From a virus, in the IMG/VR virus record IMGVR_UViG_3300048855_000013, positions 1 to 64,000 of that record: a stretch of DNA of 64,000 bases; one strand, written 5' to 3'. Shown here in pieces: positions 1,210 to 31,075 of the stretch; within the stretch, counting starts at the first letter, position 1, and each line of letters starts with the position of its first letter. The notes beneath the pieces were generated by a model. The model saw only the letters and a list, made by a program, of their open reading frames with translations. It was not told the DNA's origin and ran no database searches. Both the position numbers and the translations under genes were made by a program.

Positions 1210-2273
1210 CGGTCACCTCCTTTGGGCTCCACCATAGCCCACACCTTTTCCCTGACATCCTTGCCCTGGCGCAGTGAGAACATGAATCCTCGAAGCTCAA
1301 GAGGAATGTGGCGCTGCACAGCCAGGGCGAACGTCTTCTGGTCAGGGTCAGGGTGACCCGCGTTGTCCAGCTGACGACGAAGGAACACCCACTCCTTATC
1401 GATGCGCGAAAGGTGGTTGAACACCTCCTCGTGCAGTTCATCGTAGACTTCCTCGGCCCACTTGTACAGTTCGTCGGGCAGTTGCGCAAGCATTGCCTCG
1501 TACTTGCCATCCTTGATGGCACGCCAAATGCTCTTGCGGTTCAGCCCTGTGACCACACGGTGTAGCTCCACATAGTCAGCCTGCTTGATCTTCACACCCT
1601 TGAACTCACTCGTCCACACTACCCAGCCCTCCGAGTTGGGACGGCTGAGGTTCTGAACGATGTCCTCGAACCCGATGCCATTCTGGTTGGAGAACGCAGG
1701 CACAGGAAGGTAGGCACCCGATGCCACATGGATGTATCCGAGTGGCTGGAGGAACTCTTGGTCATCATAGTTCAGGACGATGCGGTTCTCCGGGTAGATG
1801 ATTTCGAACAGCGGAGTGTAGCCACTGTCGATCCACTCGTCTGCCATGTACGCCTTGCCCGAGGCATGGAGAATCGATGTGCCCTTGACGGCTTGCTCTG
1901 AGTTGAAGCTGCCTCGCGTAGCGATGGCAGGCGTTCCGTTCGGGGTGCGGTACAAGATACCGAGCGAGCCGTCAAACTTGTTGCCATAGGCATAGAGCGG
2001 TGCCTTCCAGTCGAGGATGGCTGGTGCCTCTGCCTCATCCCAGTTGTGCATCTTGGCGAACGGACGTGCGAGCACATCCATTGTCTCCATGTTCACAATG
2101 AGTCCACGGCACAGACGGGTCGCAGCGTTCCACCGACGAGAGAACTGTGCCTCCGGGGTGTAGTTGTAGATCACATAGTGATCGTACAGCGGGTGGTGTC
2201 GGGCAGAGATGAACCCTGCCTCCACCTCAGCTGCCAGCAGATCAACGTCCACAATTTCATTCAGTTTAGTCAC
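1206..2273 (-). CDS. ATP-dependent RNA ligase, T4 Rnl1-like
   Basis: Motif I KFDGSLGILY and a downstream TRGSFNSEQA resemble T4 RnlA KEDGSLVSTY...KSKGSIKSEQA. GTG start with GGAGGTG RBS. Confidence 0.6.
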   Translation of the reverse strand: MTKLNEIVDVDLLAAEVEAGFISARHHPLYDHYVIYNYTPEAQFSRRWNAATRLCRGLIVNMETMDVLARPFAKMHNWDEAEAPAILDWKAPLYAYGNKFDGSLGILYRTPNGTPAIATRGSFNSEQAVKGTSILHASGKAYMADEWIDSGYTPLFEIIYPENRIVLNYDDQEFLQPLGYIHVASGAYLPVPAFSNQNGIGFEDIVQNLSRPNSEGWVVWTSEFKGVKIKQADYVELHRVVTGLNRKSIWRAIKDGKYEAMLAQLPDELYKWAEEVYDELHEEVFNHLSRIDKEWVFLRRQLDNAGHPDPDQKTFALAVQRHIPLELRGFMFSLRQGKDVREKVWAMVEPKGGDR

Positions 2274-2590
2274 AGGTAAATCACCTCCGGTCCTTTAGCT
2301 TTGTTTTCTTTGATCCGCGCGTTCCGCTCATCAATTTCTGCCCATCGGTTTTCGCTGTTCTCCTTGACATAAGCAGCACTCTGCATGATGTAACTCTTTG
2401 AGCCAGCGTATCGAAGTTCTCGCAACAGTCGTGGATGACTGATGATTCCAATGAACTCATCAGGATCATCGGAAGATGGAGTAATGGTGAGCTTCCACTC
2501 ACTCCAGTCAGGATTCTCACTGGCGTCCACTACAACGGGCGGCTCCGGTGTGCCTGGTGCTGGGTGAAACAGTGCGCTTAGAAACTTCAT
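2270..2590 (-). CDS. hypothetical protein
   Basis: ORF with internal ATG at 2590 preceded by GGAGGATTG. Overlaps the stop of the CCA-enzyme gene. Confidence 0.4.
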   Translation of the reverse strand: MKFLSALFHPAPGTPEPPVVVDASENPDWSEWKLTITPSSDDPDEFIGIISHPRLLRELRYAGSKSYIMQSAAYVKENSENRWAEIDERNARIKENKAKGPEVIYL

Positions 2591-3279
2591 CAATCCTCCA
2601 TCGTGGGCTTGAGCCACATGCCACTGCCTTTGAAGGCATAGTCACGTAACTCAGGGTAGTAGTTGTCGAGTAAATGGGCAGTGTAGGTAGTGTCATGCTT
2701 GAAGCACTTGTACAACTCCTCACGTACCCTTTCTATACTGACATTGGGCAGGTTGTCAAGCACACTCAGAGTTCTCAAAGCTCGATGTAGCTCAGAGGTG
2801 AAGGCAAACTCTTTCGTCACACGGAATCGGATAGCTCGGTACATACGTAGAGCATCCTCAGTGAACACCTCTTTGGGGTCACGCACAGTGCGCAGAACCA
2901 GAGCGTAGAGGTCACGCCGCCCGCCGAACGGATCAATGATTCTGCCGATCTCATCCTCGGCCATCGCGTTGACGGTGAAGTCTCGTCGTAGCAAGTCATC
3001 CATGAGGGTGCCTGGCTCTGTGCTGTCAGGACGACGACCGTCAGAGTAGTAGCCATCCTTGCGTGCGAGAACAAAGTCCCCAGCCTCGCCCGAAGAAAGC
3101 CGAGCGCGGATGGTTCCGTACTCTGGCTTTTCCAGAAAAATTTGGCTGATTTTTCCGCGCGTGAGCCAGTCTTTCATCTCGTCGTAGCTGTCGGCAATGA
3201 CCACATAGTCGAGGTCTTTGGGGCGCAGCCCGAGCAGCTTGTCTCGGACTGCACCCCCTACGAGAAACATCTCAGGCAT
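2590..3279 (-). CDS. cca: tRNA nucleotidyltransferase (class II CCA-adding enzyme, head domain)
   Basis: FLVGGAVRD...DLDYVV...RRDFTVNA signature of class II CCA/poly(A) polymerase head domain. RBS AGGAGGAAAAG. Confidence 0.7.
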   Translation of the reverse strand: MPEMFLVGGAVRDKLLGLRPKDLDYVVIADSYDEMKDWLTRGKISQIFLEKPEYGTIRARLSSGEAGDFVLARKDGYYSDGRRPDSTEPGTLMDDLLRRDFTVNAMAEDEIGRIIDPFGGRRDLYALVLRTVRDPKEVFTEDALRMYRAIRFRVTKEFAFTSELHRALRTLSVLDNLPNVSIERVREELYKCFKHDTTYTAHLLDNYYPELRDYAFKGSGMWLKPTMED

Positions 3280-3457
3280 TCTTTTCCTCCTGCATCATAT
3301 TGATAGCTTCTCTGAGTGCGATGTACCGGTCAATCTCCCTGTCACCTATGTGCATAGGACCAAGAAACCGTAACACGCTCTGTGTTTCAGCCAATGTGAA
3401 TCCCTGGGCAGCGCATATCATCGCTGCTATATCCAAGAATGTTACGAAGATGGGCAT
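3272..3457 (-). CDS. hypothetical small protein
   Basis: 61-aa ORF in operon context with weak RBS. Confidence 0.35.
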   Translation of the reverse strand: MPIFVTFLDIAAMICAAQGFTLAETQSVLRFLGPMHIGDREIDRYIALREAINMMQEEKNA

Positions 3458-4356
3458 TAGAAGTCACCGTAGGCGACCTGAAAGGCTGAGATGCCCTTGG
3501 CTCGCCACATATCGATCACTCGGTTGCGGTCATCGAGAACGAAGTCCACATACCAGTTGTCCTTGATGTGGTTCTCGAAAATCTCATCCTTCACGATGGC
3601 ATCGTTGCGAGTATCCTTAGGAGTACGCATGAAGATGCGGTCAAAGATCACCTCGTGCTTCTTGAGCCACTGCTTGAGCACCTCACGGTAGGCTCCGTCG
3701 CGGCCCGACACAATGATGATCTGCACACCCAGGAAGGCCATCTTGTTCACCAGATCACGGACAACCCAGTCAATGCTGTCATCGATGTACTTACTGGTGT
3801 CGTAGGGACCACGATTGGTCATGTGAGCCAGGGTACCATCGATGTCTACGATAATAGCGTGTGGCAGACCAATGGTGGGCTTGTACGGCTTGAAGAGGTC
3901 GCCCTCCAGAAGTTCAGGCACAGGGGGGAAGGTTCCGTTCTTGCCGAGCTTCTTGTTGTAGAAGTCCTCGACCACCTGTGCACCCACCTGTGGAGTGCGG
4001 ATGGCATCACGACGCAGCGCCTCAGGGAGAGGTATGGGGAAGTCCTTGAACTCCACCTCTGCGCCCTCGTAGAACGCGATCACGAGAAGCTCACGGACGG
4101 ACTTGGCGTTCAGGTTGGTGTTGTCCACCACCACGTCGTAGCCCTTGCCCAGGAACTTCTTGATCTGCTCGTTCTGTAGCTCGGTGACGAGCTTCTCGGG
4201 GACACCATATCCCTTGCCGAAGTGACCCCATCGAATATTGTCACGGTTGACACGAGCGCGGTGCTGCCCCTCAGGGGCGTCGAGCACCCACCGGGTTGCC
4301 CAGGTGCTCTTTCCAGAGGCAGGAATGCCTCGGGTGATGATTAGCTTGCGAGCCAT
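3457..4356 (-). CDS. pnk: polynucleotide kinase / 3'-phosphatase (T4 Pnk-like, bifunctional)
   Basis: N-terminal P-loop GIPASGKST and C-terminal HAD phosphatase motif IVDIDGTL. Start reassigned to the ATG at 4356 with a GGAGGAACT RBS. Confidence 0.7.
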   Translation of the reverse strand: MARKLIITRGIPASGKSTWATRWVLDAPEGQHRARVNRDNIRWGHFGKGYGVPEKLVTELQNEQIKKFLGKGYDVVVDNTNLNAKSVRELLVIAFYEGAEVEFKDFPIPLPEALRRDAIRTPQVGAQVVEDFYNKKLGKNGTFPPVPELLEGDLFKPYKPTIGLPHAIIVDIDGTLAHMTNRGPYDTSKYIDDSIDWVVRDLVNKMAFLGVQIIIVSGRDGAYREVLKQWLKKHEVIFDRIFMRTPKDTRNDAIVKDEIFENHIKDNWYVDFVLDDRNRVIDMWRAKGISAFQVAYGDF

Positions 4357-4463
4357 AGTTCCTCCGCTTCGTCGTCTAGTGTAAATTCTGTTACGTTCCA
4401 CCACTCTTCATCTCCAGCGATGAGAGCCATGAGTCTTGCTTCTGCCCCGTACACGATGTACAT
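4341..4463 (-). CDS. hypothetical small protein (40 aa)
   Basis: ATG with strong AGGAGGTATC RBS. Overlaps the pnk start. Below the ORF-track size cutoff. Confidence 0.3.
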   Translation of the reverse strand: MYIVYGAEARLMALIAGDEEWWNVTEFTLDDEAEELWLAS

Positions 4464-26249: not shown

Positions 26250-26470
26250 ACGTCGCTATTGAGGTCACGCCTGAGGAAGAAGAGGCGTGGCTGGAGAAGT
26301 ATGCTGACAAGTATCCTGGTTTGGTGATCGTGGATGAGGCAGGTCCGCTGGTGTTCAACATCGAGAAGCAGCGTATCCTGCTTATCGGCAGTTCTGATGA
26401 TCCGATTTCGAGCTTTCCCATCTGGAAAGATGAGGAATTCGAGGACGATCTGCCCCCCTTTCGGGACTAA
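26246..26470 (+). CDS. hypothetical protein
   Basis: ORF. Confidence 0.45.
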   Translation: MNVAIEVTPEEEEAWLEKYADKYPGLVIVDEAGPLVFNIEKQRILLIGSSDDPISSFPIWKDEEFEDDLPPFRD

Positions 26471-26492
26471 CCTGAAAGAATCCTGAGTCGGC

Positions 26493-26521
26493 TTGACAAA
26501 CCACTCAGAAGCTGCAATACT
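26493..26521 (+). promoter_or_regulatory. putative promoter TTGACA-N17-AATACT upstream of the tRNA array
   Basis: Read directly. Confidence 0.35.
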
Positions 26522-26595
26522 TTACTTATTGATCCCAAGGCAGAGCTTTGGCGGCTATGATGAAAACCTTCGCCGTGAGGAAGGTTACCAACTAT

Positions 26596-26667
26596 TCCCC
26601 CGTAGCTCATTGGCAGAGCGGCAGGCCGTTAACCTGCGCGTACTTGGTTCGATCCCAGGCGGGGGAG
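26596..26667 (+). tRNA. tRNA-Asn (anticodon GTT) with unusual C33
   Basis: Manual cloverleaf: acceptor TCCCCCG/CGGGGGA, D GCTC/GAGC, AC GCAGG-CCGTTAA-CCTGC, T CTTGG-TTCGATC-CCAGG. Confidence 0.6.
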
Positions 26668-26732
26668 CGTTTGCTGGTTGCAGAGAAACCAGCTGGTTGT
26701 GGTTGTGAGTGATTCCCTTGTAAACTCTCGAT

Positions 26733-26809
26733 ACCGATTGTGTTCCCGTTGGACGGGAGGCGGCTTCCAAACCCGCTAAGCTATAGGGGTTCGATTCCTC
26801 CAGTCGGTG
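26733..26809 (+). tRNA. tRNA-like. Possible tRNA-Trp (CCA) with an irregular connector and variable region.
   Basis: Acceptor ACCGATT/AGTCGGT, T-arm AGGGG-TTCGATT-CCTCC, loop TTCCAAA. 77 nt. Confidence 0.3.
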
Positions 26810-27045
26810 CGACTTAGTGGCTACTAGTCACCAAAGGAGATGGCAGCGGGGCGCGACCAGTACCCAATAACGGGGCCACTAAGTTTTACTTGACAAAACC
26901 CAGTTCGTCTGGGAGAATGGTTACATGATGTTTGAACTTGATCTACACCTGGCGGCTTACCCCGCTTAGTAGTCGAGCCTACGCAAAATGTAGCCTTTGA
27001 CTCTCAGAGTCGGGGGCATTTTTTATAACTACACAGAGTACACAT

Positions 27046-27117
27046 GGGCCTGTGGCTTGATAGGGAAGCAGCACCTTTGCAAGGTGTTATATGGGGGTTC
27101 GAATCCCCTCGGGTCCA
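27046..27117 (+). tRNA. tRNA-Ala (TGC)
   Basis: Acceptor GGGCCTG/CGGGTCC, D GCTT/AAGC, AC GCACC-TTTGCAA-GGTGT, T GGGGG-TTCGAAT-CCCCT. Confidence 0.6.
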
Positions 27118-27188
27118 CGTAAGGTTCCGCTCAGATGGAGTAGCGGACGAAAGTAGCGGCAGATGGAGTTCGCTAGCCTCACTTACAT

Positions 27189-27262
27189 TGCGGGTTAGAC
27201 TGGAGGCGGTTCCAGCCAAGTCTCATAAGCTTAGGAGAGAGGTTCGATTCCTCTACCCGCAA
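27189..27262 (+). tRNA. tRNA-Met/fMet-like (CAT) with an atypical D region
   Basis: Acceptor TGCGGGT/ACCCGCA, AC CAAGT-CTCATAA-GCTTA, T AGAGG-TTCGATT-CCTCT. Confidence 0.4.
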
Positions 27263-27338
27263 CTACAGGTAGCCTACTATCCTCTGGCCTCGGGCCAGTC
27301 TGACCGCAGAAGCGGAAGGGAACAAATCAGTAGGATGA

Positions 27339-27413
27339 CTGGGTGTGGGGCAGTTGGTCAGCCTGCTTGATTTGGAATCAAGAGTATCGTGGGTTCGAAT
27401 CCCACCACCCAGA
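27339..27413 (+). tRNA. tRNA-Pro (TGG)
   Basis: Acceptor CTGGGTG/CACCCAG, AC CTTGA-TTTGGAA-TCAAG, T GTGGG-TTCGAAT-CCCAC. Confidence 0.65.
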
Positions 27414-27444
27414 CGGCGGGTGCCGCAATGGTAGACGGTGAGCG

Positions 27445-27537
27445 TAGTAAAGCACAGGGCAGATGTCCTAGGAAACCCCTCGTGCTTAGGGCGCGAAAAG
27501 TGACGACTAAGTACAGGTTCGAATCCTGTCCTGCTAA
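27445..27537 (+). tRNA. tRNA-like with a clear T-arm (ACAGG-TTCGAAT-CCTGT). The 5' half does not resolve. Possibly degenerate or type II.
   Basis: T-arm read directly. The best acceptor pairing is poor. Confidence 0.25.
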
Positions 27538-27554
27538 CGAAACAACTGAATATG

Positions 27555-27629
27555 GTGGCCGTAGCCCAAGCAGGTAGAGGCGGTGGACTGTGAATCCACT
27601 CAGTGCGAGTTCGATTCTCGTCGGTCACC
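27555..27629 (+). tRNA. tRNA-His (GTG) with encoded G-1 and C73
   Basis: Acceptor GTGGCCG/CGGTCAC, AC GTGGA-CTGTGAA-TCCAC, T GCGAG-TTCGATT-CTCGT. A G precedes the acceptor. Confidence 0.65.
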
Positions 27630-27652
27630 CGAAACAACTAAATAGAGAACTT

Positions 27653-27721
27653 GTGGTGGTAGGTGATACTGATACCTTGAAACTCAACCCTGTGGGATTC
27701 AATTCCTAAAAGGCCACCACA
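27653..27721 (+). tRNA. tRNA-like (69 nt). Perfect 7-bp acceptor GTGGTGG/CCACCAC but no canonical T-loop. Probably degenerate.
   Basis: Read directly. Confidence 0.3.
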
Positions 27722-27727
27722 ACATAT

Positions 27728-27799
27728 GCTCATGAAGCTGAATGGTTAAGCAGCACCCTGTCACGGTGTGTGTCGCCGGTTCGATCCCGGTCATGGGCG
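27728..27799 (+). tRNA. tRNA-Asp (GTC)
   Basis: Acceptor GCTCATG/CATGGGC, AC GCACC-CTGTCAC-GGTGT, T GCCGG-TTCGATC-CCGGT. Confidence 0.65.
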
Positions 27800-27803
27800 C
27801 TCT

Positions 27804-27876
27804 GGTCCCGTAGAGTAGCGGTTATCTCCCCTGATTCTCAATCAGGAAAACGTCGGTTCGAATCCGACCGGGATCA
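27804..27876 (+). tRNA. tRNA-Glu (CTC)
   Basis: Acceptor GGTCCCG/CGGGATC, AC CCTGA-TTCTCAA-TCAGG, T GTCGG-TTCGAAT-CCGAC. Confidence 0.65.
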
Positions 27877-27879
27877 CGC

Positions 27880-27907
27880 TTGACAAAAGTGTAAACTCGT
27901 GTAAACT
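27880..27907 (+). promoter_or_regulatory. promoter TTGACA-N16-TAAACT (same -10 as the 22.27 kb promoter)
   Basis: Read directly. Immediately upstream of the HNH gene. Confidence 0.45.
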
Positions 27908-27913
27908 AGAGGA

Positions 27914-28192
27914 ATGGTTTACACACGAGAGCAGCGCAAGGTCTATCAGGCAGAGTATCGTCGGAAGCGGCGAGATGAAGCCGTAGAGTATCTAGGCGGC
28001 ACGTGCGTCGTCTGCGGTACAACAGACCGGCTAGAAATCAACCATATTGATCCGCGCGAGAAGGCATTCAACCCTTCCCGTTTCTGGGGAAAGCTGGCAG
28101 ATTACTGGACAGAGATTGACAAGTGCAACCTTCTGTGCAAAGATCATCATGTAGAAGAAACAAGACGGCAGTACCGCGAGGGACTGCTATAA
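27914..28192 (+). CDS. HNH endonuclease embedded in the tRNA array
   Basis: CVVCG...EINHIDP...CNLLCKDHH. Confidence 0.6.
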   Translation: MVYTREQRKVYQAEYRRKRRDEAVEYLGGTCVVCGTTDRLEINHIDPREKAFNPSRFWGKLADYWTEIDKCNLLCKDHHVEETRRQYREGLL

Positions 28193-28264
28193 CTCTCCGT
28201 TGGGTAGGTTACCTGGCGCTGGCCGTAACCCAGTAGCCTGAGACTTCGAGTGTTTCCGGGGAGA
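28193..28264 (+). tRNA. tRNA with probable anticodon GTA (Tyr-type, class I length) and a short D-loop
   Basis: Acceptor CTCTCCG/CGGGGAG, AC GCTGG-CCGTAAC-CCAGT, T GAGAC-TTCGAGT-GTTTC. Confidence 0.4.
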
Positions 28265-28396
28265 CGCAACACAAGAGGGACTCAGCGCCTACGACCAGCT
28301 GAATACAGGATCACGACCCCACCGTGCGGCCTACGCTCTAGCAGCGTAAGCTGAACACATTGTTCCCCACCCTCCTCCGGGATTGGTGGGGCATTT

Positions 28397-28468
28397 GCCC
28401 TCAGAGCTTTGCAGGTAAAGCGCCTGGCTGAAACCCAGGAGTCATCGGTTCAAAACCGGTTGAGGGCA
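28397..28468 (+). tRNA. tRNA-Phe (GAA)
   Basis: Acceptor GCCCTCA/TGAGGGC, D GCTT/AAGC, AC CCTGG-CTGAAAC-CCAGG, T ATCGG-TTCAAAA-CCGGT. Confidence 0.7.
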
Positions 28469-28530
28469 CAGGGAATCATAACCTTGTCAGTTCAAAACAA
28501 CCCTACAAAAGATTCAGGGAACTGTCGTAT

Positions 28531-28616
28531 GGCCTAGTGGTGAAATTTGGTATACGCACTGCGCTTAGAACGCAGCGCCTTCGGGCATGTCGGTTCGATC
28601 CCGACCTGGGCTACCA
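28531..28616 (+). tRNA. tRNA-Leu (TAG), type II, CCA encoded
   Basis: Acceptor GGCCTAG/CTGGGCT-A-CCA, AC CTGCG-CTTAGAA-CGCAG, variable-arm hairpin GCC-TTCG-GGC, T GTCGG-TTCGATC-CCGAC. Confidence 0.7.
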
Positions 28617-28618
28617 TT

Positions 28619-28776
28619 TGACAAACAAGAAAAAGTATGGGAAGATTGATTCATGAACGTAACGCAGGGAACCACAAGTAAGCGAGGCCAGTCGGTCATC
28701 GTGTCCTTTGTGGTCCTCTAATAACAGTTCCTGTTATCACACCGACCCTCTTGACACCGCCAGGAGGGTCTTTTTT
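28619..28776 (+). other. promoter-like TTGACA, then a 22-codon mini-ORF, then a rho-independent terminator (GACCCTC...GAGGGTC + T6). The cassette sits inside the tRNA array.
   Basis: Read directly. Terminator stem at 28744..28770 with T-run to 28776. Confidence 0.35.
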
Positions 28777-28778
28777 AT

Positions 28779-28863
28779 GGCGTGTAAAGCTCTAATGGTT
28801 GGGCACTAGTCTTGAAAACTAGGGGTCGGGAAACCGGCAGGGGTTCGATTCCTCTGCGCGCCG
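28779..28863 (+). tRNA. tRNA-Ser (TGA), type II
   Basis: Acceptor GGCGTGT/GCGCGCC, AC CTAGT-CTTGAAA-ACTAG, variable-arm hairpin GTCGG-GAAA-CCGGC, T AGGGG-TTCGATT-CCTCT. Confidence 0.65.
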
Positions 28864-28902
28864 CTTGTTCAGGAACACTGAACTGAACGAAAAACTGAAC
28901 AT

Positions 28903-28987
28903 GGCTAGTAAACCGTGAAGGTCACGGACCTCCCTGCTAAGGAGCGTGCTCGGGAAACCGGGTGGGAATCGTTCTCTCTGCTAGCCG
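28903..28987 (+). tRNA. tRNA-Ser (GCT)-like, type II, with a truncated T-loop (GGGAA-TCG-TTCTC). Possible pseudogene.
   Basis: Acceptor GGCTAGT/GCTAGCC perfect. AC loop CTGCTAA. Confidence 0.35.
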
Positions 28988-29000
28988 CGCAACACACTAA

Positions 29001-29072
29001 CCCCTTGTAGCTCAGAAGCAGAGCAGGCGGCTCTTACCCGTCGGGCCGGGATGGCAGAATTCCCCAGGGGGA
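29001..29072 (+). tRNA. tRNA-Lys (CTT)-like with a non-canonical T-loop (GGCAGAA)
   Basis: Acceptor CCCCTTG/CAGGGGG, D GCTC/GAGC, AC GGCGG-CTCTTAC-CCGTC. Confidence 0.4.
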
Positions 29073-29088
29073 CGTAACAACTAAATAT

Positions 29089-29162
29089 GGGACATATGCC
29101 GATATGGTGCGGCGTCAGGCTTCCACCCTGAAATAGAGCGAGTTCGAGCCTCGCATGTCTCT
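29089..29162 (+). tRNA. tRNA-Gly (TCC)
   Basis: Acceptor GGGACAT/ATGTCTC, D GCCG/CGGC, AC TCAGG-CTTCCAC-CCTGA, T GCGAG-TTCGAGC-CTCGC. Confidence 0.65.
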
Positions 29163-29166
29163 CTTT

Positions 29167-29235
29167 CGTCCTCGCATCGGCATGCAACCGAACTTTACAC
29201 GTTTGGTCTACAGGGTTCGACACCCTGGGGGACGA
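29167..29235 (+). tRNA. tRNA-Val (TAC)-like, 69 nt with a shortened D-arm
   Basis: Acceptor CGTCCTC/GGGGACG, AC CGAAC-TTTACAC-GTTTG, T CAGGG-TTCGACA-CCCTG. Confidence 0.4.
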
Positions 29236-29267
29236 CAATGGTATTACGTCCATTCAAAACGTAGTTG

Positions 29268-29340
29268 TGCCCCTATAGCTTAATGGGCAAAGCATGTGTC
29301 TTGTAAACACAAGTCAGGAGTTCGAATCTCCGTGGGGGCT
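29268..29340 (+). tRNA. tRNA-Thr (TGT)
   Basis: Acceptor GCCCCTA/TGGGGGC, D GCTT/AAGC, AC TGTGT-CTTGTAA-ACACA, T AGGAG-TTCGAAT-CTCCG. Confidence 0.65.
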
Positions 29341-29386
29341 CTGTGCAACTTTTATGGTAACACCGATTACAACAATAACTAAACAT

Positions 29387-29460
29387 GCCGCTATAGCTCA
29401 GCAGGACAGAGCAGATGCCTACGAAGCATCGTGTCGGGGGTTCGAATCCCTCTAGCGGCA
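29387..29460 (+). tRNA. tRNA-Arg (ACG)
   Basis: Acceptor GCCGCTA/TAGCGGC perfect, D GCTC/GAGC, AC GATGC-CTACGAA-GCATC, T GGGGG-TTCGAAT-CCCTC. Confidence 0.7.
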
Positions 29461-29521
29461 CAATAGAGAGTGTGCAGCCCGGTAGGATGGACGCATAAGA
29501 TGAAACCGCACTCCTAGATTT

Positions 29522-29592
29522 ACCCGATTAGTGTAACGGCAACACGTCTGACTCTGAATCAGATAGTCTTGGTTCGAATCCAGGATCGGGTG
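29522..29592 (+). tRNA. tRNA-Gln (CTG)
   Basis: Acceptor ACCCGAT/ATCGGGT perfect, D GTGT/ACAC, AC TCTGA-CTCTGAA-TCAGA, T CTTGG-TTCGAAT-CCAGG. Confidence 0.7.
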
Positions 29593-29637
29593 CGTTAGAA
29601 TAGACTTATCGAGCGATAAGTCAAGTGTAATGTACAT

Positions 29638-29708
29638 ACCGGGTAAAGACACTGGCCGTCTAGCGCTCTTTTAAAGCGTGAGAAGGAGTTCGATTCTCCT
29701 ATCCGGTA
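29638..29708 (+). tRNA. tRNA-Lys (TTT)
   Basis: Acceptor ACCGGGT/ATCCGGT, D AGAC/GTCT, AC GCGCT-CTTTTAA-AGCGT, T AGGAG-TTCGATT-CTCCT. Confidence 0.7.
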
Positions 29709-29712
29709 CTGT

Positions 29713-29784
29713 GCCGATGTGGCTGAATGGTTCAGGCAGCGGATTGCAAACCCGCGTACTCCGGTTCGATCCCGGACTTCGGCT
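29713..29784 (+). tRNA. tRNA-Cys (GCA)
   Basis: Acceptor GCCGATG/CTTCGGC (one T-T mismatch), AC GCGGA-TTGCAAA-CCCGC, T TCCGG-TTCGATC-CCGGA. Confidence 0.55.
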
Positions 29785-29788
29785 CTTT

Positions 29789-29855
29789 CCCGCTAGTCGT
29801 GGATGCACGAGGGTGTTCTAAGCCTAGAGTCTCGGTTCGATTCCGAGTAGTGGGA
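29789..29855 (+). tRNA. tRNA-Arg (TCT)-like, 67 nt with a 4-nt D-loop
   Basis: Acceptor CCCGCTA/TAGTGGG, D CGTG-GATG-CACG, AC AGGGT-GTTCTAA-GCCTA, T CTCGG-TTCGATT-CCGAG. Confidence 0.35.
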
Positions 29856-29871
29856 CTCATATTGGAGGAAT

Positions 29872-30561
29872 ATGACGAACGTTATGGTGGCTACCCCTGC
29901 TTATGGGGGCCAAGTCACAGAGCCTTACCTACAGTCGATGCTGAATCTGGTCTTCGAGTCTCACCGACTCGGCTTCAAGATCAACGTTCACACGCTGACA
30001 GGTGAGTCCCTCATCACGAGGGCACGCAACAACATGCTCCACACCTTCCTATCGCAGCCTGAGTACGATCAGCTACTGTGGATTGACTCGGATATCGGGT
30101 TTGCTCCACTCAATGCTCTTCGACTCATCCATAGTGAGCACGAGGTCACAGCAACACCTTACCCTCTCAAAGCTATCTGGTGGGATGCAGTGGCAGGTAG
30201 CACTGCTGCGGAGAAGCAACTCAGTGGCAAGCACTATGTGGTCAATCGGATCGGTGACGAGAAGGATGAAAACGGCTTCTCTGAGGTCATGGATGCTGGC
30301 ACCGGGTTCATGTGCATCAAGCGATCAGCCCTAGAGAAGATGATTGATGCTTATCCTGAGCTACAGTACACGTCAGATGGCAACAATCACAACGAAGACG
30401 AAGACCGTAAGCGCTACCTGTTCTTCGACACTATGGTAGACGATGGGCGTTATCTCTCCGAGGACTACGCCTTCTGCCGTCGCTGGCAGAGAATCGGTGG
30501 TAAGGTCATGCTGGACATGAGTGCACCGCCGCTCCGACACTTCGGAAACTACGCCTACTAG
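29872..30561 (+). CDS. putative GT-A fold glycosyltransferase (DxD-type) embedded in the tRNA array
   Basis: LWIDSDIGF DxD-like motif. N-terminal MVATPAYGG. RBS GGAGGAAT. Confidence 0.4.
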   Translation: MTNVMVATPAYGGQVTEPYLQSMLNLVFESHRLGFKINVHTLTGESLITRARNNMLHTFLSQPEYDQLLWIDSDIGFAPLNALRLIHSEHEVTATPYPLKAIWWDAVAGSTAAEKQLSGKHYVVNRIGDEKDENGFSEVMDAGTGFMCIKRSALEKMIDAYPELQYTSDGNNHNEDEDRKRYLFFDTMVDDGRYLSEDYAFCRRWQRIGGKVMLDMSAPPLRHFGNYAY

Positions 30562-30568
30562 GCGTTAT

Positions 30569-30642
30569 TGGCAATAGCTCAGCTGGTTGCTGAGGGCAAC
30601 CTGATAAGCTGCTTGAGGTGGGTTCGATCCCCGCATTGCCAA
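30569..30642 (+). tRNA. tRNA-Ile (GAT)
   Basis: Acceptor TGGCAAT/ATTGCCA perfect, D CTCA/TGAG, AC GCAAC-CTGATAA-GCTGC, T GTGGG-TTCGATC-CCCGC. Confidence 0.65.
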
Positions 30643-30654
30643 CTCTCTGTGAAT

Positions 30655-30686
30655 CCCCTGCGTGCGTTTGACGCAGGGGATTTTTG
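30655..30686 (+). terminator. rho-independent terminator (CCCCTGCGT-GCGTTTG-ACGCAGGGG plus T-run) after the tRNA array
   Basis: Read directly. Confidence 0.55.
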
Positions 30687-30705
30687 GGTCTAAGATGGAG
30701 TCTCT

Positions 30706-30927
30706 ATGGAAAAAATTACACTCTACAGCAAGCCCAACTGTGTCCAGTGCACAGCCACCAAGACTTACCTCGACAGGAACGAAATCCCGTATGAGCCAGT
30801 CGATGTTACCCAGGATGAATCCGCTTACAACCACATCGTAGGACTCGGATACCAGCAGGTTCCAGTGATCGAGGTGGGAGGACGCCACTGGTCAGGATTC
30901 GACCCTAACCAGCTTGCAACTCTGTAA
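30706..30927 (+). CDS. nrdH: NrdH-like glutaredoxin
   Basis: YSKPNCVQCTATK with CVQC active site. 73 aa. Confidence 0.65.
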   Translation: MEKITLYSKPNCVQCTATKTYLDRNEIPYEPVDVTQDESAYNHIVGLGYQQVPVIEVGGRHWSGFDPNQLATL

Positions 30928-31008
30928 CTGATACTGTATACTGGTATGTACGTGAACTCCTCCGTCACGCCATAGACTCGCCGTGTGAACATGGCTTGAG
31001 TCCGAAAA

Positions 31009-31039
31009 GCCCCCAGGCTCCTCCTCCTGGGGGCTTTTT
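31009..31039 (+). terminator. rho-independent terminator (GCCCCCAGG-CTCCTCCT-CCTGGGGGC-TTTTT)
   Basis: Read directly. Confidence 0.6.
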
Positions 31040-31045
31040 GTATAT

Positions 31046-31075
31046 TTGACACATGATCAATACCCATGATATCAT
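31046..31075 (+). promoter_or_regulatory. promoter TTGACA-N18-TATCAT. It would give a leaderless or near-leaderless terS transcript.
   Basis: Read directly. No SD before any candidate start at 31053, 31074 or 31083. Confidence 0.4.

What the first reader, a model, noticed from the sequence alone, without database searches (positions are those of the whole stretch)
26493..30690. Large tRNA array with embedded HNH endonuclease, glycosyltransferase, mini-ORF cassette and NrdH
About 25 tRNA or tRNA-like genes are packed into about 4 kb on one strand. The clearly resolved ones are Asn, Ala, Pro, His, Asp, Glu, Phe, Leu, Ser, Gly, Thr, Arg, Gln, Lys-TTT, Cys and Ile, plus tentative Met, Trp, Lys-CTT, Val, Tyr-type and Arg-TCT-like genes. 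The array is split by an HNH gene that has its own TTGACA-N16-TAAACT promoter, and by a GT-A glycosyltransferase. It is framed by promoters and terminators. The array matches the repair enzymes on the other arm and may serve to resist tRNA-targeting defences or codon bias.
Basis: seen in the sequence. Interest (0 to 1): 0.55.

Follow-up and report, generated by a model that had tools for sequence, protein, structure and literature searches.

The report
Phage tRNA array with leader-peptide gates
A phage carries 23 tRNA genes in a row, and two tiny upstream reading frames spell out exactly the amino acids served by the tRNAs behind them, which suggests the phage makes its tRNAs only when the cell's own supply runs short.

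Summary
Window 26493-30690 is a same-strand tRNA array in a Yappy-like actinophage of about 70 kb. It has 23 tRNA genes covering all 20 amino acids. ARAGORN at default, and four of the others score weakly. There are also two tRNA-like fragments. The HNH gene, its TTGACA-N16-TAAACT promoter, a GT-A-fold glycosyltransferase and NrdH are all real. Taken alone, the array is a new member of a known kind.

Two modules precede the two large tRNA blocks. Each is a TTGACA promoter, an apparently leaderless ATG, 14-22 codons, 20-23 nt and an intrinsic terminator.
- Peptide A, MMFELDLHLAAYPA, uses only the nine amino acids of the block behind it: Ala Met Pro His Asp Glu Tyr Phe Leu.
- Peptide B is 18/21 residues from its own block: Ser Lys Gly Val Thr Arg Gln Cys Ile.
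- Across 11 modules in eight phage genomes, 92% of residues fit in frame, against 41-47% out of frame.
- Residue order shuffles between relatives while composition is kept.

I read the modules as ribosome-mediated attenuators that switch on phage tRNA transcription when decoding stalls. That mechanism is inferred, not shown. My literature searches found no description of it.

The parts
26493..26521 (+). Promoter P0 (TTGACA-N17-AATACT) at the head of the array. It drives block 0 (Asn, Trp).
   Evidence: Promoter scan, 10 of 12 consensus matches.
26596..26668 (+). tRNA-Asn(GTT)
   Evidence: ARAGORN default; Rfam 50.9 bits; R1 60.6 bits.
26733..26810 (+). tRNA-Trp(CCA), 78 nt, atypical
   Evidence: ARAGORN default; R1 19.3 bits. 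Syntenic with Trp in Yappy and L086.
26890..26918 (+). Module A promoter, TTGACA-N17-GAGAAT. The ATG lies 6 nt after the -10 hexamer, so the transcript is inferred to be leaderless.
   Evidence: L170, L086 and L172 have the same geometry.
26925..26969 (+). Leader ORF A, MMFELDLHLAAYPA*. It contains only the nine amino acids of the tRNA block downstream, and all nine of them.
   Evidence: Sequence. 13/13 residues in set and 9/9 isotypes, with P(in-set) 3.8e-5. Frame control.
26971..26977 (+). Proposed antiterminator half ('region 2'), AGTCGAG. It starts 1 nt after the stop codon, is complementary to the terminator's 5' arm and copies part of its 3' arm.
   Evidence: Constrained folds. It changes together with the terminator in L086 and L172.
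26993..27024 (+). Intrinsic terminator A: 11-bp stem plus a T run, 23 nt after the leader stop.
27046..27118 (+). tRNA-Ala(TGC)
27189..27263 (+). tRNA-Met(CAT), elongator-like, U1-A72
   Evidence: ARAGORN default; R1 37.2 bits; not reported by the Rfam tRNA model.
27339..27414 (+). tRNA-Pro(TGG)
27415..27540 (+). Fragment X: degenerate tRNA-like insert in which only the T arm (27509-27529) is recognisable.
   Evidence: R1 partial hit, 13.9 bits. Relaxed ARAGORN calls 'Leu-TAG'. Absent from L170 and L086, where the spacer is 16 nt.
27555..27630 (+). tRNA-His(GTG)
27653..27721 (+). Fragment Y: tRNA-sized insert with a 7-bp acceptor-like stem. It is not a credible tRNA.
   Evidence: R1 5.9 bits, E about 1. 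Absent from L170 and L086.
27728..27800 (+). tRNA-Asp(GTC)
   Evidence: Rfam 55.4 bits; R1 51.4 bits; ARAGORN only with relaxed settings.
27804..27877 (+). tRNA-Glu(CTC)
27880..28192 (+). HNH cassette: promoter TTGACA-N16-TAAACT (27880-27907) plus a 92-aa HNH endonuclease ORF (27914-28192). It sits in the Glu-Tyr spacer.
   Evidence: PHROG 4234, E 1.7e-23; promoter. This site is empty in L086 and L172. Paralogues lie at other array sites in L006 and Yappy.
28193..28265 (+). tRNA-Tyr(GTA)-like, 73 nt, with a short variable arm and C33. It starts on the base after the HNH stop codon.
   Evidence: Relaxed ARAGORN; R1 24.2 bits. Compared with L086 it shows 3 compensatory pair changes and no lost pairs.
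28397..28469 (+). tRNA-Phe(GAA)
28531..28616 (+). tRNA-Leu(TAG), class II. It is the only gene in the array with an encoded CCA.
28618..28646 (+). Module B promoter, TTGACA-N17-GAAGAT. The ATG lies 6 nt after the -10 hexamer.
   Evidence: Sequence. Conserved in six further genomes.
28653..28721 (+). Leader ORF B, MNVTQGTTSKRGQSVIVSFVVL*. 18 of 21 residues belong to the isotypes of the downstream block.
28744..28776 (+). Intrinsic terminator B: 10-bp stem plus TTTTTT, 22 nt after the leader stop and 2 nt before tRNA-Ser.
28779..28864 (+). tRNA-Ser(TGA), class II
28903..28988 (+). tRNA-Ser(GCT)-like, class II, low-scoring
   Evidence: Relaxed ARAGORN; R1 11.8 bits. Syntenic with Ser-GCT in Yappy and L086. 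All stems pair, with 14 double pair changes relative to L086.
29001..29073 (+). tRNA-Lys(CTT)-like with a non-canonical T loop (GGCAGAA)
   Evidence: R1 41.0 bits. 87% identical to L003 Lys-CTT and 93.5% identical to the L086 copy. No ARAGORN setting tried called it, and the Rfam tRNA model reported no match at E<=10.
29089..29163 (+). tRNA-Gly(TCC)
29164..29236 (+). tRNA-Val(TAC), atypical D arm
   Evidence: ARAGORN default; R1 25.7 bits; no Rfam hit.
29269..29341 (+). tRNA-Thr(TGT)
29387..29461 (+). tRNA-Arg(ACG)
29522..29593 (+). tRNA-Gln(CTG)
29638..29709 (+). tRNA-Lys(TTT)
   Evidence: ARAGORN default; R1 53.4 bits.
29713..29785 (+). tRNA-Cys(GCA)
29789..29856 (+). tRNA-Arg(TCT)-like, 68 nt
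   Evidence: Relaxed ARAGORN; R1 31.2 bits. Syntenic with Arg-TCT in Yappy, L086, L089 and L008.
29872..30561 (+). GT-A-fold glycosyltransferase-like gene with its own Shine-Dalgarno sequence, between Arg-TCT and Ile.
   Evidence: AF2 model pLDDT 93.6. Foldseek matches STIV A197, the LH3 glycosyltransferase domain, SpsA and TarP. D72-x-D74 is invariant. The gene is at the same site in L086 and L089 and absent from Yappy, L002, L003 and L006.
30569..30643 (+). tRNA-Ile(GAT), the last gene of the array
30655..30696 (+). Terminator hairpin plus T run that closes the array. It overlaps the nrdH promoter (TTGACG-N17-TAAGAT).
   Evidence: Sequence.
30706..30927 (+). NrdH-like glutaredoxin (CVQC motif)
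   Evidence: Pfam Glutaredoxin, 1.7e-15. Conserved upstream of the terminase in all relatives.
475..4404 (-). tRNA-repair and maturation genes on the other arm: RlaP nucleotidyltransferase (475-1209), Rnl1-like RNA ligase (1206-2273), CCA-adding enzyme (2590-3279) and PNKP kinase-phosphatase (3457-4404).
   Evidence: Pfam and PHROGs.

Best explanation
This is the tRNA gene array of a lytic Yappy-like actinophage. It holds 23 tRNA genes, at least one for each of the 20 amino acids, arranged as three transcription units.

- Block 0 (Asn, Trp) follows a plain promoter.
- Block A is Ala Met Pro His Asp Glu Tyr Phe Leu.
- Block B is Ser Ser Lys Gly Val Thr Arg Gln Lys Cys Arg Ile.

Blocks A and B each sit behind a gate. 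The gate is a consensus promoter, an ATG 6 nt after the -10 hexamer, a 14- or 22-codon ORF, 22-23 nt of spacer and an intrinsic terminator. No other promoter lies before the first tRNA.

Proposed mechanism:
1. A ribosome translates the leaderless ORF behind the RNA polymerase.
2. If every codon is decoded promptly, the ribosome reaches the stop codon and covers the stop-proximal segment (region 2). The terminator then forms and the tRNA block is not transcribed.
3. If the ribosome stalls because any tRNA of that block's amino-acid set is scarce, uncharged or cleaved, region 2 stays free and pairs with the terminator's 5' arm. The polymerase then reads through into the tRNA genes.

The phage would therefore make its own tRNAs on demand. 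Demand could arise from its A/T-richer codon usage, from host shut-off or from anticodon nucleases.

The precursor tRNAs would be trimmed by host enzymes, and 22 of 23 would need CCA addition, for which the phage carries its own enzyme. The HNH gene is a selfish homing-type insertion, and the glycosyltransferase is an inherited passenger.

What is shown: the genes, their synteny, the conserved stems, the module anatomy and the match between leader composition and block. What is inferred: the leaderless start, translation of the ORFs, and the coupling of stalling to read-through.
For: The array is real and conserved.
- The same order of tRNAs occurs in Curtobacterium phage Yappy and in metagenomic relatives.
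- Among 462 stem pairs compared with L086, 245 are identical, 141 changed on both sides while staying paired, 26 changed on one side while staying paired, and only 6 are broken in the window alone.

The module anatomy is conserved in 11 modules from eight genomes.
- The -35 is TTGACA (TTGCAT in L006), followed by N17-18, a -10 hexamer, N6-7 and ATG.
- The ORFs run 14-24 codons.
- The stop-to-terminator gap is 20-23 nt in every module.
- The scan found no promoter between either terminator and the first tRNA in the window.

Leader composition matches the downstream block.
- Leader A in the window is 13/13 in set and covers 9/9 isotypes. The chance of 13/13 in set is 3.8e-5, and no simulated peptide in 400,000 reached both values.
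- The other A leaders are MMFEFDLHLAAYPA (L170), MNEMFAYELHLAADPA (L086) and MMFEAFDLYLAAHPA (L172). They keep all nine amino acids while His, Tyr and Asp change places.
- The seven B leaders score 15/16 to 21/22 in set. All seven contain Ser, Thr, Val, Gly, Lys, Arg, Gln and Ile, and L172 also contains Cys.
- The signal depends on reading frame: 184/201 residues fit in frame 0, against 47% and 41% in the other two frames. Background is 46-48%.
- Of 17 residues that do not fit, 12 lie in the last five codons (P 2.6e-4). That is the zone where a stalled ribosome would still cover region 2.

The folding is compatible with the classical four-region scheme.
- The naked RNA forms a hairpin within the ORF plus the terminator.
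- With the ribosome stalled upstream, the stop-proximal segment pairs with the terminator's 5' arm. With the ribosome at the stop codon, that segment is covered.
- Region 2 pairs better with its own terminator arm than with those of other phages: mean -9.1 against -5.9 kcal/mol. Among the B modules, 30 of 5040 permutations do as well.

Precedent and functional link.
- Leaderless short ORFs act as amino-acid-responsive attenuators in mycobacteria (bioRxiv 10.1101/834739). Leader peptides are reported in Corynebacterium glutamicum (PMC3890552).
- 22/23 tRNA genes lack CCA, and the phage encodes a CCA-adding enzyme, PNKP and RNA ligases.
Against: - There are no expression data. The transcription start, translation of the ORFs and terminator read-through are all inferred.
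- Equilibrium folding always favours the terminator. It shows no consistent antiterminator at most simulated stall positions.
- The shuffle test for pairing between region 2 and the terminator arm is weak module by module (p 0.05-0.25; combined about 0.005, treating related modules as independent). In window module B the candidate pairing is only 4 bp.
- Module A exists only in one sub-lineage (window, L170, L086, L172), so it may have arisen once. Yappy, L002 and L006 lack it.
- The match holds at the level of amino acids, not strictly of codons. Leader A uses GAA, which the remaining Glu-CTC tRNA cannot read, and no leader uses AGA or AGG although Arg-TCT lies downstream.
- In the window, the HNH promoter would drive Tyr-Phe-Leu whatever the state of gate A.
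- Several tRNAs have unusual features: C33 and a short variable arm in Tyr, a GGCAGAA T loop in Lys-CTT, and a 68-nt Arg-TCT. They might not be aminoacylated.
Confidence: 0.6

Rival explanations
1. The array is an ordinary, constitutively expressed phage tRNA cluster. The two modules are unrelated small genes (a micropeptide or a structured small RNA of about 100-125 nt), and their terminators only separate transcription units. The tRNA blocks are then expressed by leaky read-through, and the composition match has no regulatory meaning.
For: - The leader regions fold into strong hairpins, for example -45.8 kcal/mol over 126 nt in module B, as a stable small RNA would.
- The terminators form in every equilibrium fold.
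- Evidence for an antiterminator is modest.
Against: - A small RNA does not explain a match that depends on reading frame: 92% in frame against 41-47% out of frame.
- It does not explain two different peptides each matching its own block.
- It does not explain conservation of composition while residue order shuffles.
- It does not explain non-matching residues clustering in the last five codons.
- A functional micropeptide would be expected to keep its sequence, not just its composition.
- No Rfam family other than tRNA matches these stretches.
Confidence: 0.12
2. The leader ORFs are translated sensors of decoding capacity, but the regulated step is not the classical choice between terminator and antiterminator. 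Stalling could instead change RNA stability or processing of the tRNA precursor, recruit or block Rho or RNases, or act in the opposite direction so that efficient translation promotes read-through.
For: - The composition match needs translation but does not specify the step that follows.
- Thermodynamic support for a 2:3 antiterminator is uneven across modules.
- In mycobacteria, leaderless polycysteine ORFs act by opening an RNA structure that hides a ribosome-binding site, not by acting on a terminator.
Against: - Every module has a canonical hairpin plus U-run terminator at a fixed 20-23 nt from the stop codon.
- The segment near the stop codon changes together with its own terminator arm.
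- The insensitive zone of about five codons before the stop fits ribosome occlusion of region 2.
- The regulated genes are tRNAs, so control through a ribosome-binding site is not possible.
Confidence: 0.2
3. A large part of the array is decaying. The low-scoring members (Tyr, Ser-GCT, Lys-CTT, Arg-TCT, Val, Met, Trp) would be pseudogenes, and the array a relic with little current function.
For: - Seven window tRNAs get no significant match to the Rfam tRNA model, while 21 of 23 Yappy tRNAs pass its gathering score.
- Fragments X and Y are clearly degenerate.
- The relative L015 has shrunk to four tRNAs.
- Tyr has C33 and lacks the long variable arm. Lys-CTT has a T loop without T54-Psi55.
Against: - The weak members keep paired acceptor, anticodon and T stems.
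- They show compensatory changes relative to L086: Tyr 3, Ser-GCT 14, Val 5, Arg-TCT 3. None of Tyr, Val, Lys-CTT and Arg-TCT has a pair broken in the window alone, and Ser-GCT has one.
- Each keeps its anticodon and its place in the array across relatives.
- The leaders still carry codons for these amino acids.
Confidence: 0.06

Closest known systems
tRNA array of Curtobacterium phage Yappy (GenBank PQ868972), the only related isolate found in the phage collection
   Same: - Terminase 62% identical.
- Same position upstream of NrdH and the terminase, and the same order of tRNA isotypes.
- Carries module B (promoter, MSTQQVRTTVSGIKSGA, terminator) between Leu and Ser.
- Has RNA ligase and polynucleotide kinase on the other arm.
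   Different: - Yappy packs 23 annotated tRNAs into 2.7 kb with short spacers.
- It keeps Glu-TTC and a class II Tyr.
- It has no module A, no glycosyltransferase, and its HNH paralogue lies after the array.
- The mini-ORF is not annotated in the record.
- No megablast-level DNA match to the window array.
Classical leader-peptide transcription attenuators (trp, his, thr, ilv and pheST leaders of bacteria)
   Same: - A short ORF carrying 'regulatory' codons, followed by an intrinsic terminator, upstream of genes that supply what those codons need.
- A segment near the stop codon that can pair with the terminator's 5' arm.
- A hairpin within the ORF in the untranslated RNA.
- Multi-amino-acid leaders are known for ilv and thr (my own knowledge).
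   Different: - The regulated genes are tRNA genes, not biosynthetic or synthetase genes, and the system is in a phage.
- The leader lists one to five codons for each of eight or nine amino acids instead of runs of one or two.
- The mRNA appears to be leaderless.
- The layout is very compact, with 20-23 nt from stop codon to terminator.
- My full-text searches found no report of such a leader before a tRNA operon.
Leaderless polycysteine short-ORF attenuators of mycobacteria (Canestrari et al., bioRxiv 10.1101/834739)
   Same: - The host clade is actinobacterial.
- A leaderless short ORF is the first cistron.
- Ribosome stalling at sensor codons remodels downstream RNA structure.
   Different: - Those sense one amino acid (Cys).
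- They control translation of a downstream protein gene by exposing its ribosome-binding site.
- Here the output would be read-through of a terminator into tRNA genes.
T-box riboswitches
   Same: A leader RNA with a terminator that responds to tRNA status and controls genes of the translation apparatus.
   Different: - A T-box binds one uncharged tRNA directly through a specifier codon and the T-box bulge, without a ribosome.
- No T-box or other Rfam leader family matches here.
- The signal here is an in-frame ORF.
Phage tRNAs that counter tRNA-cleaving defences: T5 tRNA-Lys against PARIS (PMC11464382), phage tRNAs against retron effectors (PMC11555353), and tRNA array units of mycobacteria (PMC12803027)
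   Same: - A large set of phage tRNAs.
- It coexists with tRNA-repair genes and NAD-salvage genes, as expected of a counter-defence kit.
   Different: - No defence system or nuclease target is identified here.
- No comparison with host tRNA anticodon loops was possible.
- Demand-gated expression of such tRNAs does not appear in the abstracts of those papers. I did not read their full texts.
Homing endonuclease genes inside phage tRNA regions (T4 segB and the T5 tRNA-region endonucleases; my own knowledge)
   Same: A free-standing endonuclease ORF with its own promoter sits in a tRNA spacer. It is present or absent among close relatives, and paralogues lie at other spacers.
   Different: - This one is a minimal 92-aa HNH protein.
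- No target site or cleavage is known.

Membership tests
Phage tRNA gene cluster | Several cloverleaf tRNA genes on one strand within a phage genome | tested here: met
   23 tRNA genes flanked by terminase, portal, capsid and tail genes.
Phage tRNA gene cluster | Structure conserved by selection in related phages | tested here: met
   Same order in eight related genomes. 141 double compensatory pair changes against L086, with 6 pairs broken in the window alone.
Phage tRNA gene cluster | Mature, aminoacylated tRNAs produced during infection | not testable with these tools
   Needs small-RNA sequencing and charging assays.
Ribosome-mediated (leader-peptide) transcription attenuator | A promoter followed closely by a short ORF upstream of the regulated genes | tested here: met
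   TTGACA-N17-(-10)-N6-ATG with ORFs of 14 and 22 codons. The same holds in 11 modules.
Ribosome-mediated (leader-peptide) transcription attenuator | Leader enriched in codons for the amino acids tied to the regulated genes | tested here: met
   92% of 201 leader residues belong to the isotype set of the module's own downstream block, against 41-47% out of frame. Simulated per-module probabilities of the in-set count range from 3e-3 to below 2.5e-6.
Ribosome-mediated (leader-peptide) transcription attenuator | An intrinsic terminator between the leader and the regulated genes, with no intervening promoter | tested here: met
   Terminators at 26993-27024 and 28744-28776. The scan finds no promoter-like site before Ala or Ser. 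The gap from stop codon to stem is 20-23 nt in all modules.
Ribosome-mediated (leader-peptide) transcription attenuator | A mutually exclusive antiterminator whose formation depends on ribosome position | tested here: inconclusive
   - Kinetic folds show the stop-proximal segment pairing with the terminator's 5' arm, and a ribosome at the stop codon would cover it.
- Matched pairs beat mismatched pairs at p 0.006.
- Single-module shuffles give only p 0.05-0.25.
- Equilibrium folds always keep the terminator.
Ribosome-mediated (leader-peptide) transcription attenuator | Read-through responds to the supply of charged tRNA | not testable with these tools
   Needs reporters or Term-seq under amino-acid starvation or tRNA depletion.
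Free-standing HNH homing endonuclease | HNH nuclease motif | tested here: met
   PHROG 4234, E 1.7e-23, plus nine more HNH PHROGs. CxxC...NHID...H is readable in the sequence. There is no Pfam hit at E<=0.01.
Free-standing HNH homing endonuclease | Present or absent at one site among close relatives, with paralogues at other intergenic sites | tested here: met
   The Glu-Tyr spacer is 18 nt and empty in L086 and holds no ORF in L172. Paralogues lie at L006 2287-2538 and 5219-5455 and at Yappy 10124-10354.
Free-standing HNH homing endonuclease | Site-specific cleavage of endonuclease-free alleles | not testable with these tools
   Biochemical assay needed.
GT-A glycosyltransferase | GT-A (Rossmann-like, SpsA-type) fold | tested here: met
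   AF2 pLDDT 93.6 and pTM 0.90. Foldseek probability 1.0 to STIV A197, the LH3 glycosyltransferase domain, SpsA, TarP and Mnn9, with TM about 0.5-0.57.
GT-A glycosyltransferase | DxD metal and nucleotide-sugar binding motif | tested here: met
   D72 and D74 are invariant in 36 homologues.
GT-A glycosyltransferase | Membership of a curated glycosyltransferase sequence family | tested here: not met
   Best Pfam hit is Glyco_transf_21 at 17.5 bits, below the 21.7-bit cut-off. The PHROG 1574 match has unknown function. There is no PDB sequence match. The 120 homologues listed, of 2569 found, carry no Pfam domain.
NrdH-like glutaredoxin | Glutaredoxin fold with a CVQC redox motif | tested here: met
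   Pfam Glutaredoxin, 1.7e-15. NCVQCT is readable in the translation. The Yappy orthologue is annotated as an NrdH-like glutaredoxin.
T4-type tRNA repair pathway (Pnkp plus Rnl1) | A polynucleotide kinase-phosphatase and an Rnl1-type RNA ligase encoded together | tested here: met
   HAD_PNKP 3.4e-47 plus AAA_33 (3457-4404), and RNA_lig_T4_1 2.4e-13 (1206-2273). Activity on cleaved tRNA was not tested.

The most novel reading that the evidence does not exclude
The two leaderless mini-ORFs are multi-amino-acid 'decoding sensors'. Each lists the amino acids of the tRNA genes behind it. A ribosome stall at any of those codons, whether from codon-usage mismatch, host shut-off or an anticodon nuclease, would suppress the terminator and switch on that block of phage tRNAs. 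This would be ribosome-mediated attenuation controlling tRNA operons, and a demand-driven layer of viral control over tRNA supply and counter-defence.
Probability: 0.55. Interest if true: 0.88.

Novelty: new variant of a known kind. Interest (0 to 1): 0.74.

Why it matters
Why phages carry tRNA genes is still debated. The candidates are codon compensation, insurance against host tRNA decay, and escape from tRNA-cleaving defences. How phages regulate these genes is largely unknown.

A leader peptide that samples exactly the amino acids served by the downstream tRNAs would show that, in this lineage, phage tRNAs are produced in response to decoding failure. That is an experimentally testable answer.

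It would also extend leader-peptide attenuation, a textbook mechanism, in three ways: to RNA genes, to viruses, and to a composite sensor for eight or nine amino acids at once.

The design is compact, at about 130 nt, and its logic can be read from the sequence. Sensor codons, the start codon and the stop-proximal segment can each be mutated in simple reporters. Other phage tRNA arrays can be searched for the same signature.

The array itself, the HNH insertion, the glycosyltransferase and NrdH are ordinary.

Tried and rejected
- **Close DNA relatives.** Megablast of the array against 50,697 phage records found nothing. Relatives had to be found through the terminase, the glycosyltransferase and the HslV-like protein.
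- **Rfam as the only judge.** Rfam gives no significant tRNA-model match for seven syntenic tRNAs. I therefore built a lineage model from relatives only.
- **Fragments X and Y as unusual tRNAs.** Rejected. The model matches only a T arm in X, and Y is not significant. Both are absent from the closest relatives.
- **Promoters hidden in terminators A and B.** The TTGAC(T/A) boxes in the hairpins have no usable -10 hexamer at 16-19 nt, and the boxes are not conserved in relatives. Rejected on reading the sequence.
- **Equilibrium folding with a ribosome footprint.** The terminator forms at nearly every stall position, so this does not support attenuation. Only the kinetic version, with the RNA folded up to the terminator's 5' arm, shows the alternative pairing.
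- **Module A outside the sub-lineage.** Not found in Yappy, L002, L006 or L015.
- **More distant terminase relatives.** 56 loci scanned in one call, plus several in an earlier scan, hold no arrays.
- **Generality in another actinophage.** One 50-kb stretch of Streptomyces phage Satis held no tRNAs, and I did not pursue this further. Whether such modules occur in unrelated phage arrays is untested.
- **Source contig.** Looking up the window's own contig by its glycosyltransferase protein failed.
- **Host codon usage.** It could not be computed because the host is unknown. The only actinobacterial sequence obtained was a Microbacterium prophage region of 68% GC.

Full report
**1. The observation**

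ARAGORN at default settings finds 18 tRNA genes, all on the + strand, between 26596 and 30643. Rfam adds a clear tRNA-Asp at 27728-27799 with 55 bits. Relaxed ARAGORN settings add Tyr-GTA, Ser-GCT and Arg-TCT candidates.

To score every candidate on one scale without circularity, I aligned 55 class I tRNAs taken only from related phages. I built a covariance model, R1, from them and ran it unfiltered over 26300-31100.
- It gives 22 full-length + strand hits between 70.5 and 19.3 bits.
- These include a Lys-CTT gene at 29001-29072 (41 bits) that ARAGORN did not call at any setting tried and that the Rfam tRNA model did not report.
- Ser-GCT scores 11.8 bits. It is a class II tRNA and is penalised by a class I model.
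- The best hit on the wrong strand scores 10.7 bits.

The array therefore holds 23 tRNA genes. Together they cover all 20 amino acids.

Two further tRNA-like stretches are not credible genes.
- X (27415-27540) matches only over a T arm.
- Y (27653-27721) scores 5.9 bits.

It missed only Ser-GCT.

**2. Where the sequence comes from**

The window is a tailed phage. Terminase, portal, capsid and tail genes follow the array, and minus-strand early and replication genes flank it. A protein 100% identical to the window's glycosyltransferase is on record from a JGI contig of 70,529 bp.

The terminase is 62% identical to that of Curtobacterium phage Yappy. Yappy has 23 annotated tRNAs in the same order at the same place, followed by NrdH and the terminase.

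Metagenomic relatives with terminase identity of 60% or more carry the array in variable states:
- L002, L003, L006, L086/L087/L088, L089/L172 and L170 carry a full or partial array.
- L015 has shrunk to four tRNAs.

More distant terminase relatives have no array.

The lineage has 52-59% GC. The window has 54.6% GC and GC3 of 0.62. That is far below Yappy's high-GC host (my own knowledge) and below the 68% of a Microbacterium prophage region.

**3. Are the weak tRNAs genes or relics?**

The window's Tyr, Ser-GCT, Lys-CTT, Val, Met and Lys-TTT get no tRNA-model match in Rfam, and Arg-TCT is likewise absent from the whole-array Rfam scan. In Yappy, 21 of 23 tRNAs pass the model's gathering score. 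Several window genes have odd features:
- Tyr has C33 and a short variable arm.
- Lys-CTT has a GGCAGAA T loop.
- Arg-TCT is only 68 nt.

Their acceptor, anticodon and T stems nevertheless pair.

I compared 22 orthologous pairs between the window and L086, which has the same 23 genes in the same order. Of 462 stem pairs:
- 245 are identical;
- 141 changed on both sides and still pair;
- 26 changed on one side and still pair;
- 6 are broken only in the window.

The weak members behave the same way: Tyr has 3 compensatory changes, Ser-GCT 14, Val 5 and Arg-TCT 3.

The alignment was fitted to the model, which inflates such counts. Even so, the pattern argues for maintained structure rather than decay. 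X, Y and a 70-nt insert between Ala and Met are absent from L170 and L086, where the spacers are 4-20 nt. They are recent debris in the window's lineage.

**4. The embedded protein genes**

*HNH.* The 92-aa ORF at 27914-28192 is an HNH endonuclease (PHROG 4234, E 1.7e-23). Its TTGACA-N16-TAAACT promoter is at 27880-27907.
- It fills the Glu-Tyr spacer, which is 18 nt and empty in L086.
- Paralogues occupy other spacers in L006 and the end of the array in Yappy.
- This is the pattern of a mobile, free-standing homing endonuclease.
- Glu-TTC, present in Yappy, L002 and L006, was already lost in the sub-lineage. L086 and L172 lack it without having an HNH gene there.

*Glycosyltransferase.* The 229-aa ORF at 29872-30561 has no curated family match. 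Its AlphaFold model (pLDDT 93.6) matches GT-A enzymes such as STIV A197, the LH3 glycosyltransferase domain, SpsA and TarP. It has an invariant DxD motif.
- It sits between Arg-TCT and Ile in L086 and L089 as well, so it is inherited within a sub-lineage.
- It is absent from Yappy, L002, L003 and L006.
- A homologue lies among tail genes of a Microbacterium prophage.

*NrdH.* It is conserved in all relatives.

**5. The link to the other arm**

The minus-strand arm encodes RlaP, an Rnl1-like ligase, a CCA-adding enzyme, PNKP, a second RNA ligase, and NAMPT with a ribose-phosphate pyrophosphokinase-like protein. Yappy has the ligase and kinase too.

Only Leu-TAG encodes its own CCA. All 23 genes have a C after the discriminator base. 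The array therefore depends on CCA addition, for which the phage has its own enzyme.

**6. The unexpected part: the mini-ORFs**

An alignment of the Leu-to-Ser spacer across five genomes showed a conserved module: a TTGACA promoter, an ATG 6-7 nt after the -10 hexamer, a short ORF and a terminator. The window holds two such modules.

| | Module A | Module B |
|---|---|---|
| -35 box starts | 26890 | 28618 |
| -10 hexamer | GAGAAT | GAAGAT |
| ATG | 26925 | 28653 |
| Peptide | MMFELDLHLAAYPA | MNVTQGTTSKRGQSVIVSFVVL |
| Terminator | 26993-27024 | 28744-28776 |
| tRNAs that follow | Ala Met Pro His Asp Glu Tyr Phe Leu | Ser Ser Lys Gly Val Thr Arg Gln Lys Cys Arg Ile |

The promoter scan finds no promoter between either terminator and the first tRNA.

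Peptide A contains only the nine amino acids of block A, and all nine of them. Peptide B is 18/21 residues from block B's set.

Against peptides drawn from the phage's own amino-acid frequencies:
- the chance of 13/13 in set is 3.8e-5;
- none of 400,000 simulated peptides reached both 13/13 in set and 9/9 isotypes;
- the B leaders give in-set probabilities from 3e-3 to below 2.5e-6.

**7. Comparative tests of the match**

I found 11 modules in eight genomes.

A leaders:
- Window: MMFELDLHLAAYPA
- L170: MMFEFDLHLAAYPA
- L086: MNEMFAYELHLAADPA
- L172: MMFEAFDLYLAAHPA

Every one contains all nine amino acids, while His, Tyr and Asp change places.

B leaders:
- Window: MNVTQGTTSKRGQSVIVSFVVL
- L086: MNVTQGTQSKRGQSVIASIGLR
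- L172: MSICSVSKQTGTRQSGVRSFGVL
- Yappy: MSTQQVRTTVSGIKSGA
- L002: MSTISTVKQTGTQQGRSSRWRR
- L003: MTKTVSTGTKRGQQVIRSSFGVR
- L006: MSTLSTIQGTTGVKRQSSVEGADF

They are hardly alignable, yet all contain Ser, Thr, Val, Gly, Lys, Arg, Gln and Ile. The L172 leader also contains Cys. Each uses both AGY and TCN serine codons, matching the two Ser tRNAs downstream.

Two further results bear on the match:
- Pooled, 184 of 201 residues (92%) belong to the module's own downstream set in the ORF frame. The other two frames give 47% and 41%, and background is 46-48%. A frame-specific signal points to translation and rules out an effect of base composition.
- Of the 17 residues that do not fit, 12 lie in the last five codons (P 2.6e-4), and three more are Asn at codon 2.

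**8. Mechanism**

The anatomy is that of a ribosome-mediated attenuator.
- The distance from stop codon to terminator stem is 20-23 nt in all 11 modules.
- The untranslated RNA folds into a hairpin within the ORF plus the terminator.
- When the RNA is folded only up to the terminator's 5' arm, with a ribosome footprint placed mid-ORF, a segment at or just after the stop codon pairs with that arm. Examples are AGUCGAG:UUUGACU in the window's module A, AGUCGAA:UUCGACU in L086, GGGCUA:UAGCCC in L086 module B and GCAGG:CCUGC in Yappy.
- A ribosome sitting on the stop codon would cover that segment.
- The segment copies part of the terminator's 3' arm and changes with it between phages: AGUCG in both places in the window and L086, GAUCG in both in L172.
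- Matched segment and arm pairs are more stable than mismatched ones, at -9.1 against -5.9 kcal/mol. Among the seven B modules only 30 of 5040 permutations do as well.

The weaker points are these.
- Equilibrium folds always keep the terminator.
- Single-module shuffles give p 0.05-0.25.
- The window's module B has only a 4-bp candidate pairing.

The five-codon insensitive zone before the stop codon is what ribosome occlusion of that segment predicts.

One further inference follows from the leaderless design. Only transcripts that start at the module's own promoter would have a translatable AUG. Read-through from upstream would then be terminated, which insulates each block.

**9. What is known**

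Phage tRNA arrays are well known. So are homing endonucleases inside them (my own knowledge), phage tRNAs that defeat tRNA-cleaving defences (PMC11464382, PMC11555353) and T4-type tRNA repair (my own knowledge).

Leader-peptide attenuation is textbook. Leaderless short-ORF attenuators have been demonstrated in mycobacteria (10.1101/834739), and leader peptides are reported in C. glutamicum (PMC3890552).

Four full-text searches found no report of a leader peptide gating tRNA genes, in phages or in cells. No Rfam leader or T-box family matches the modules. The mini-ORF is not annotated in Yappy.

I therefore file the array as a new member of a known kind, and the gates as a new variant of a known regulatory kind.

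**10. Verdict**

The main result is the match between leader-peptide composition and tRNA block. It is statistically strong, depends on reading frame and is conserved in evolution. That the modules work as attenuators is an inference, which I hold at about 0.6. It needs transcript mapping and reporter tests. Whether such gates occur outside this lineage was not tested.

Noticed in passing
window 4900-7678 (- strand): A NAMPT-like gene (4900-6411) lies next to a ribose-phosphate pyrophosphokinase-like gene (6596-7678). This is an NAD-salvage pair, possibly a counter to NAD-depleting defences. Neither product appears in Yappy's annotation.
   Followed up: partly
window 27541-27553, 27633-27645, 29076-29088, 29374-29386: The motif AACAACTAAATAT (up to 2 mismatches) occurs four times in the window, against 0.4 expected. 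Each copy ends directly 5' of a tRNA or tRNA-like element (His, Y, Gly, Arg-ACG). Similar copies lie in spacers of L003 and L086. It may be a processing or leader signal. Its function is unexplained.
   Followed up: partly
window 26596-30643 (3' ends of all tRNA genes): All 23 tRNA genes have a C straight after the discriminator base, but only Leu-TAG encodes a full CCA. His encodes CC.
   Followed up: partly
window 28193-28265; L086 8310-8381: The tRNA-Tyr(GTA) of the window and of L086 has a short variable arm (class I shape). In L172, Yappy, L002, L006 and L015 it is the usual bacterial class II form of 79-83 nt. The window copy also has C33 in place of the universal U33.
   Followed up: partly
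window 27119-27188, 27415-27540, 27631-27727: Three inserts of 70-125 nt in the Ala-Met, Pro-His and His-Asp spacers are absent from the closest relatives L170 and L086. The first contains a direct repeat, CAGATGGAGT, twice. Their origin is unknown. They could be decayed tRNAs or small mobile elements.
   Followed up: partly
window 26993-27017, 28744-28770, 30655-30679: Three terminator hairpins each contain a TTGAC(T/A/G) box. Only the third has a usable -10 hexamer at the right spacing (TAAGAT, the nrdH promoter). The boxes are not conserved in relatives.
   Followed up: partly
window 27880-27916, 31046-31085: The HNH gene has its ATG 6 nt after its -10 hexamer. In the 181-aa ORF upstream of the terminase, an internal ATG at 31083 lies 7 nt after TATCAT. 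Leaderless transcripts may be the rule in this phage, and the annotated start of the 181-aa ORF (31053) may be wrong.
   Followed up: no
window 25692-26249: An HslV/proteasome-like peptidase gene lies just upstream of the array (PHROG 1040, E 1.6e-28). It is found only in the window's sub-lineage and in some unrelated phages.
   Followed up: partly
L090 10001-10684 (Microbacterium sp. LMI12-1-1.1 prophage): A 50%-identical homologue of the array's GT-A-fold protein sits between minor-tail genes of a prophage. This hints that the family may glycosylate virion or cell-surface components.
   Followed up: no
L015 5607-6200 (Ga0157371_10000865): One relative with 65% terminase identity has only four tRNAs (Asn, Trp, Pro, Tyr) and no leader module. 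It shows that the array can collapse.
   Followed up: partly
window 9633-10550 (- strand): An SPFH/Band 7 family protein is encoded in the early arm (Pfam 8.3e-24). An SPFH/Band 7 family protein is also encoded in the unrelated phage contig L173.
   Followed up: no
window 26925-26969 and the other A leaders: The A leaders favour codons that are rare in the phage. TTT, GAA and GAT make up 11 of 15 Phe, Glu and Asp codons, although genome usage of these codons is 16%, 32% and 40%. GAA cannot be read by the remaining Glu-CTC tRNA.
   Followed up: partly
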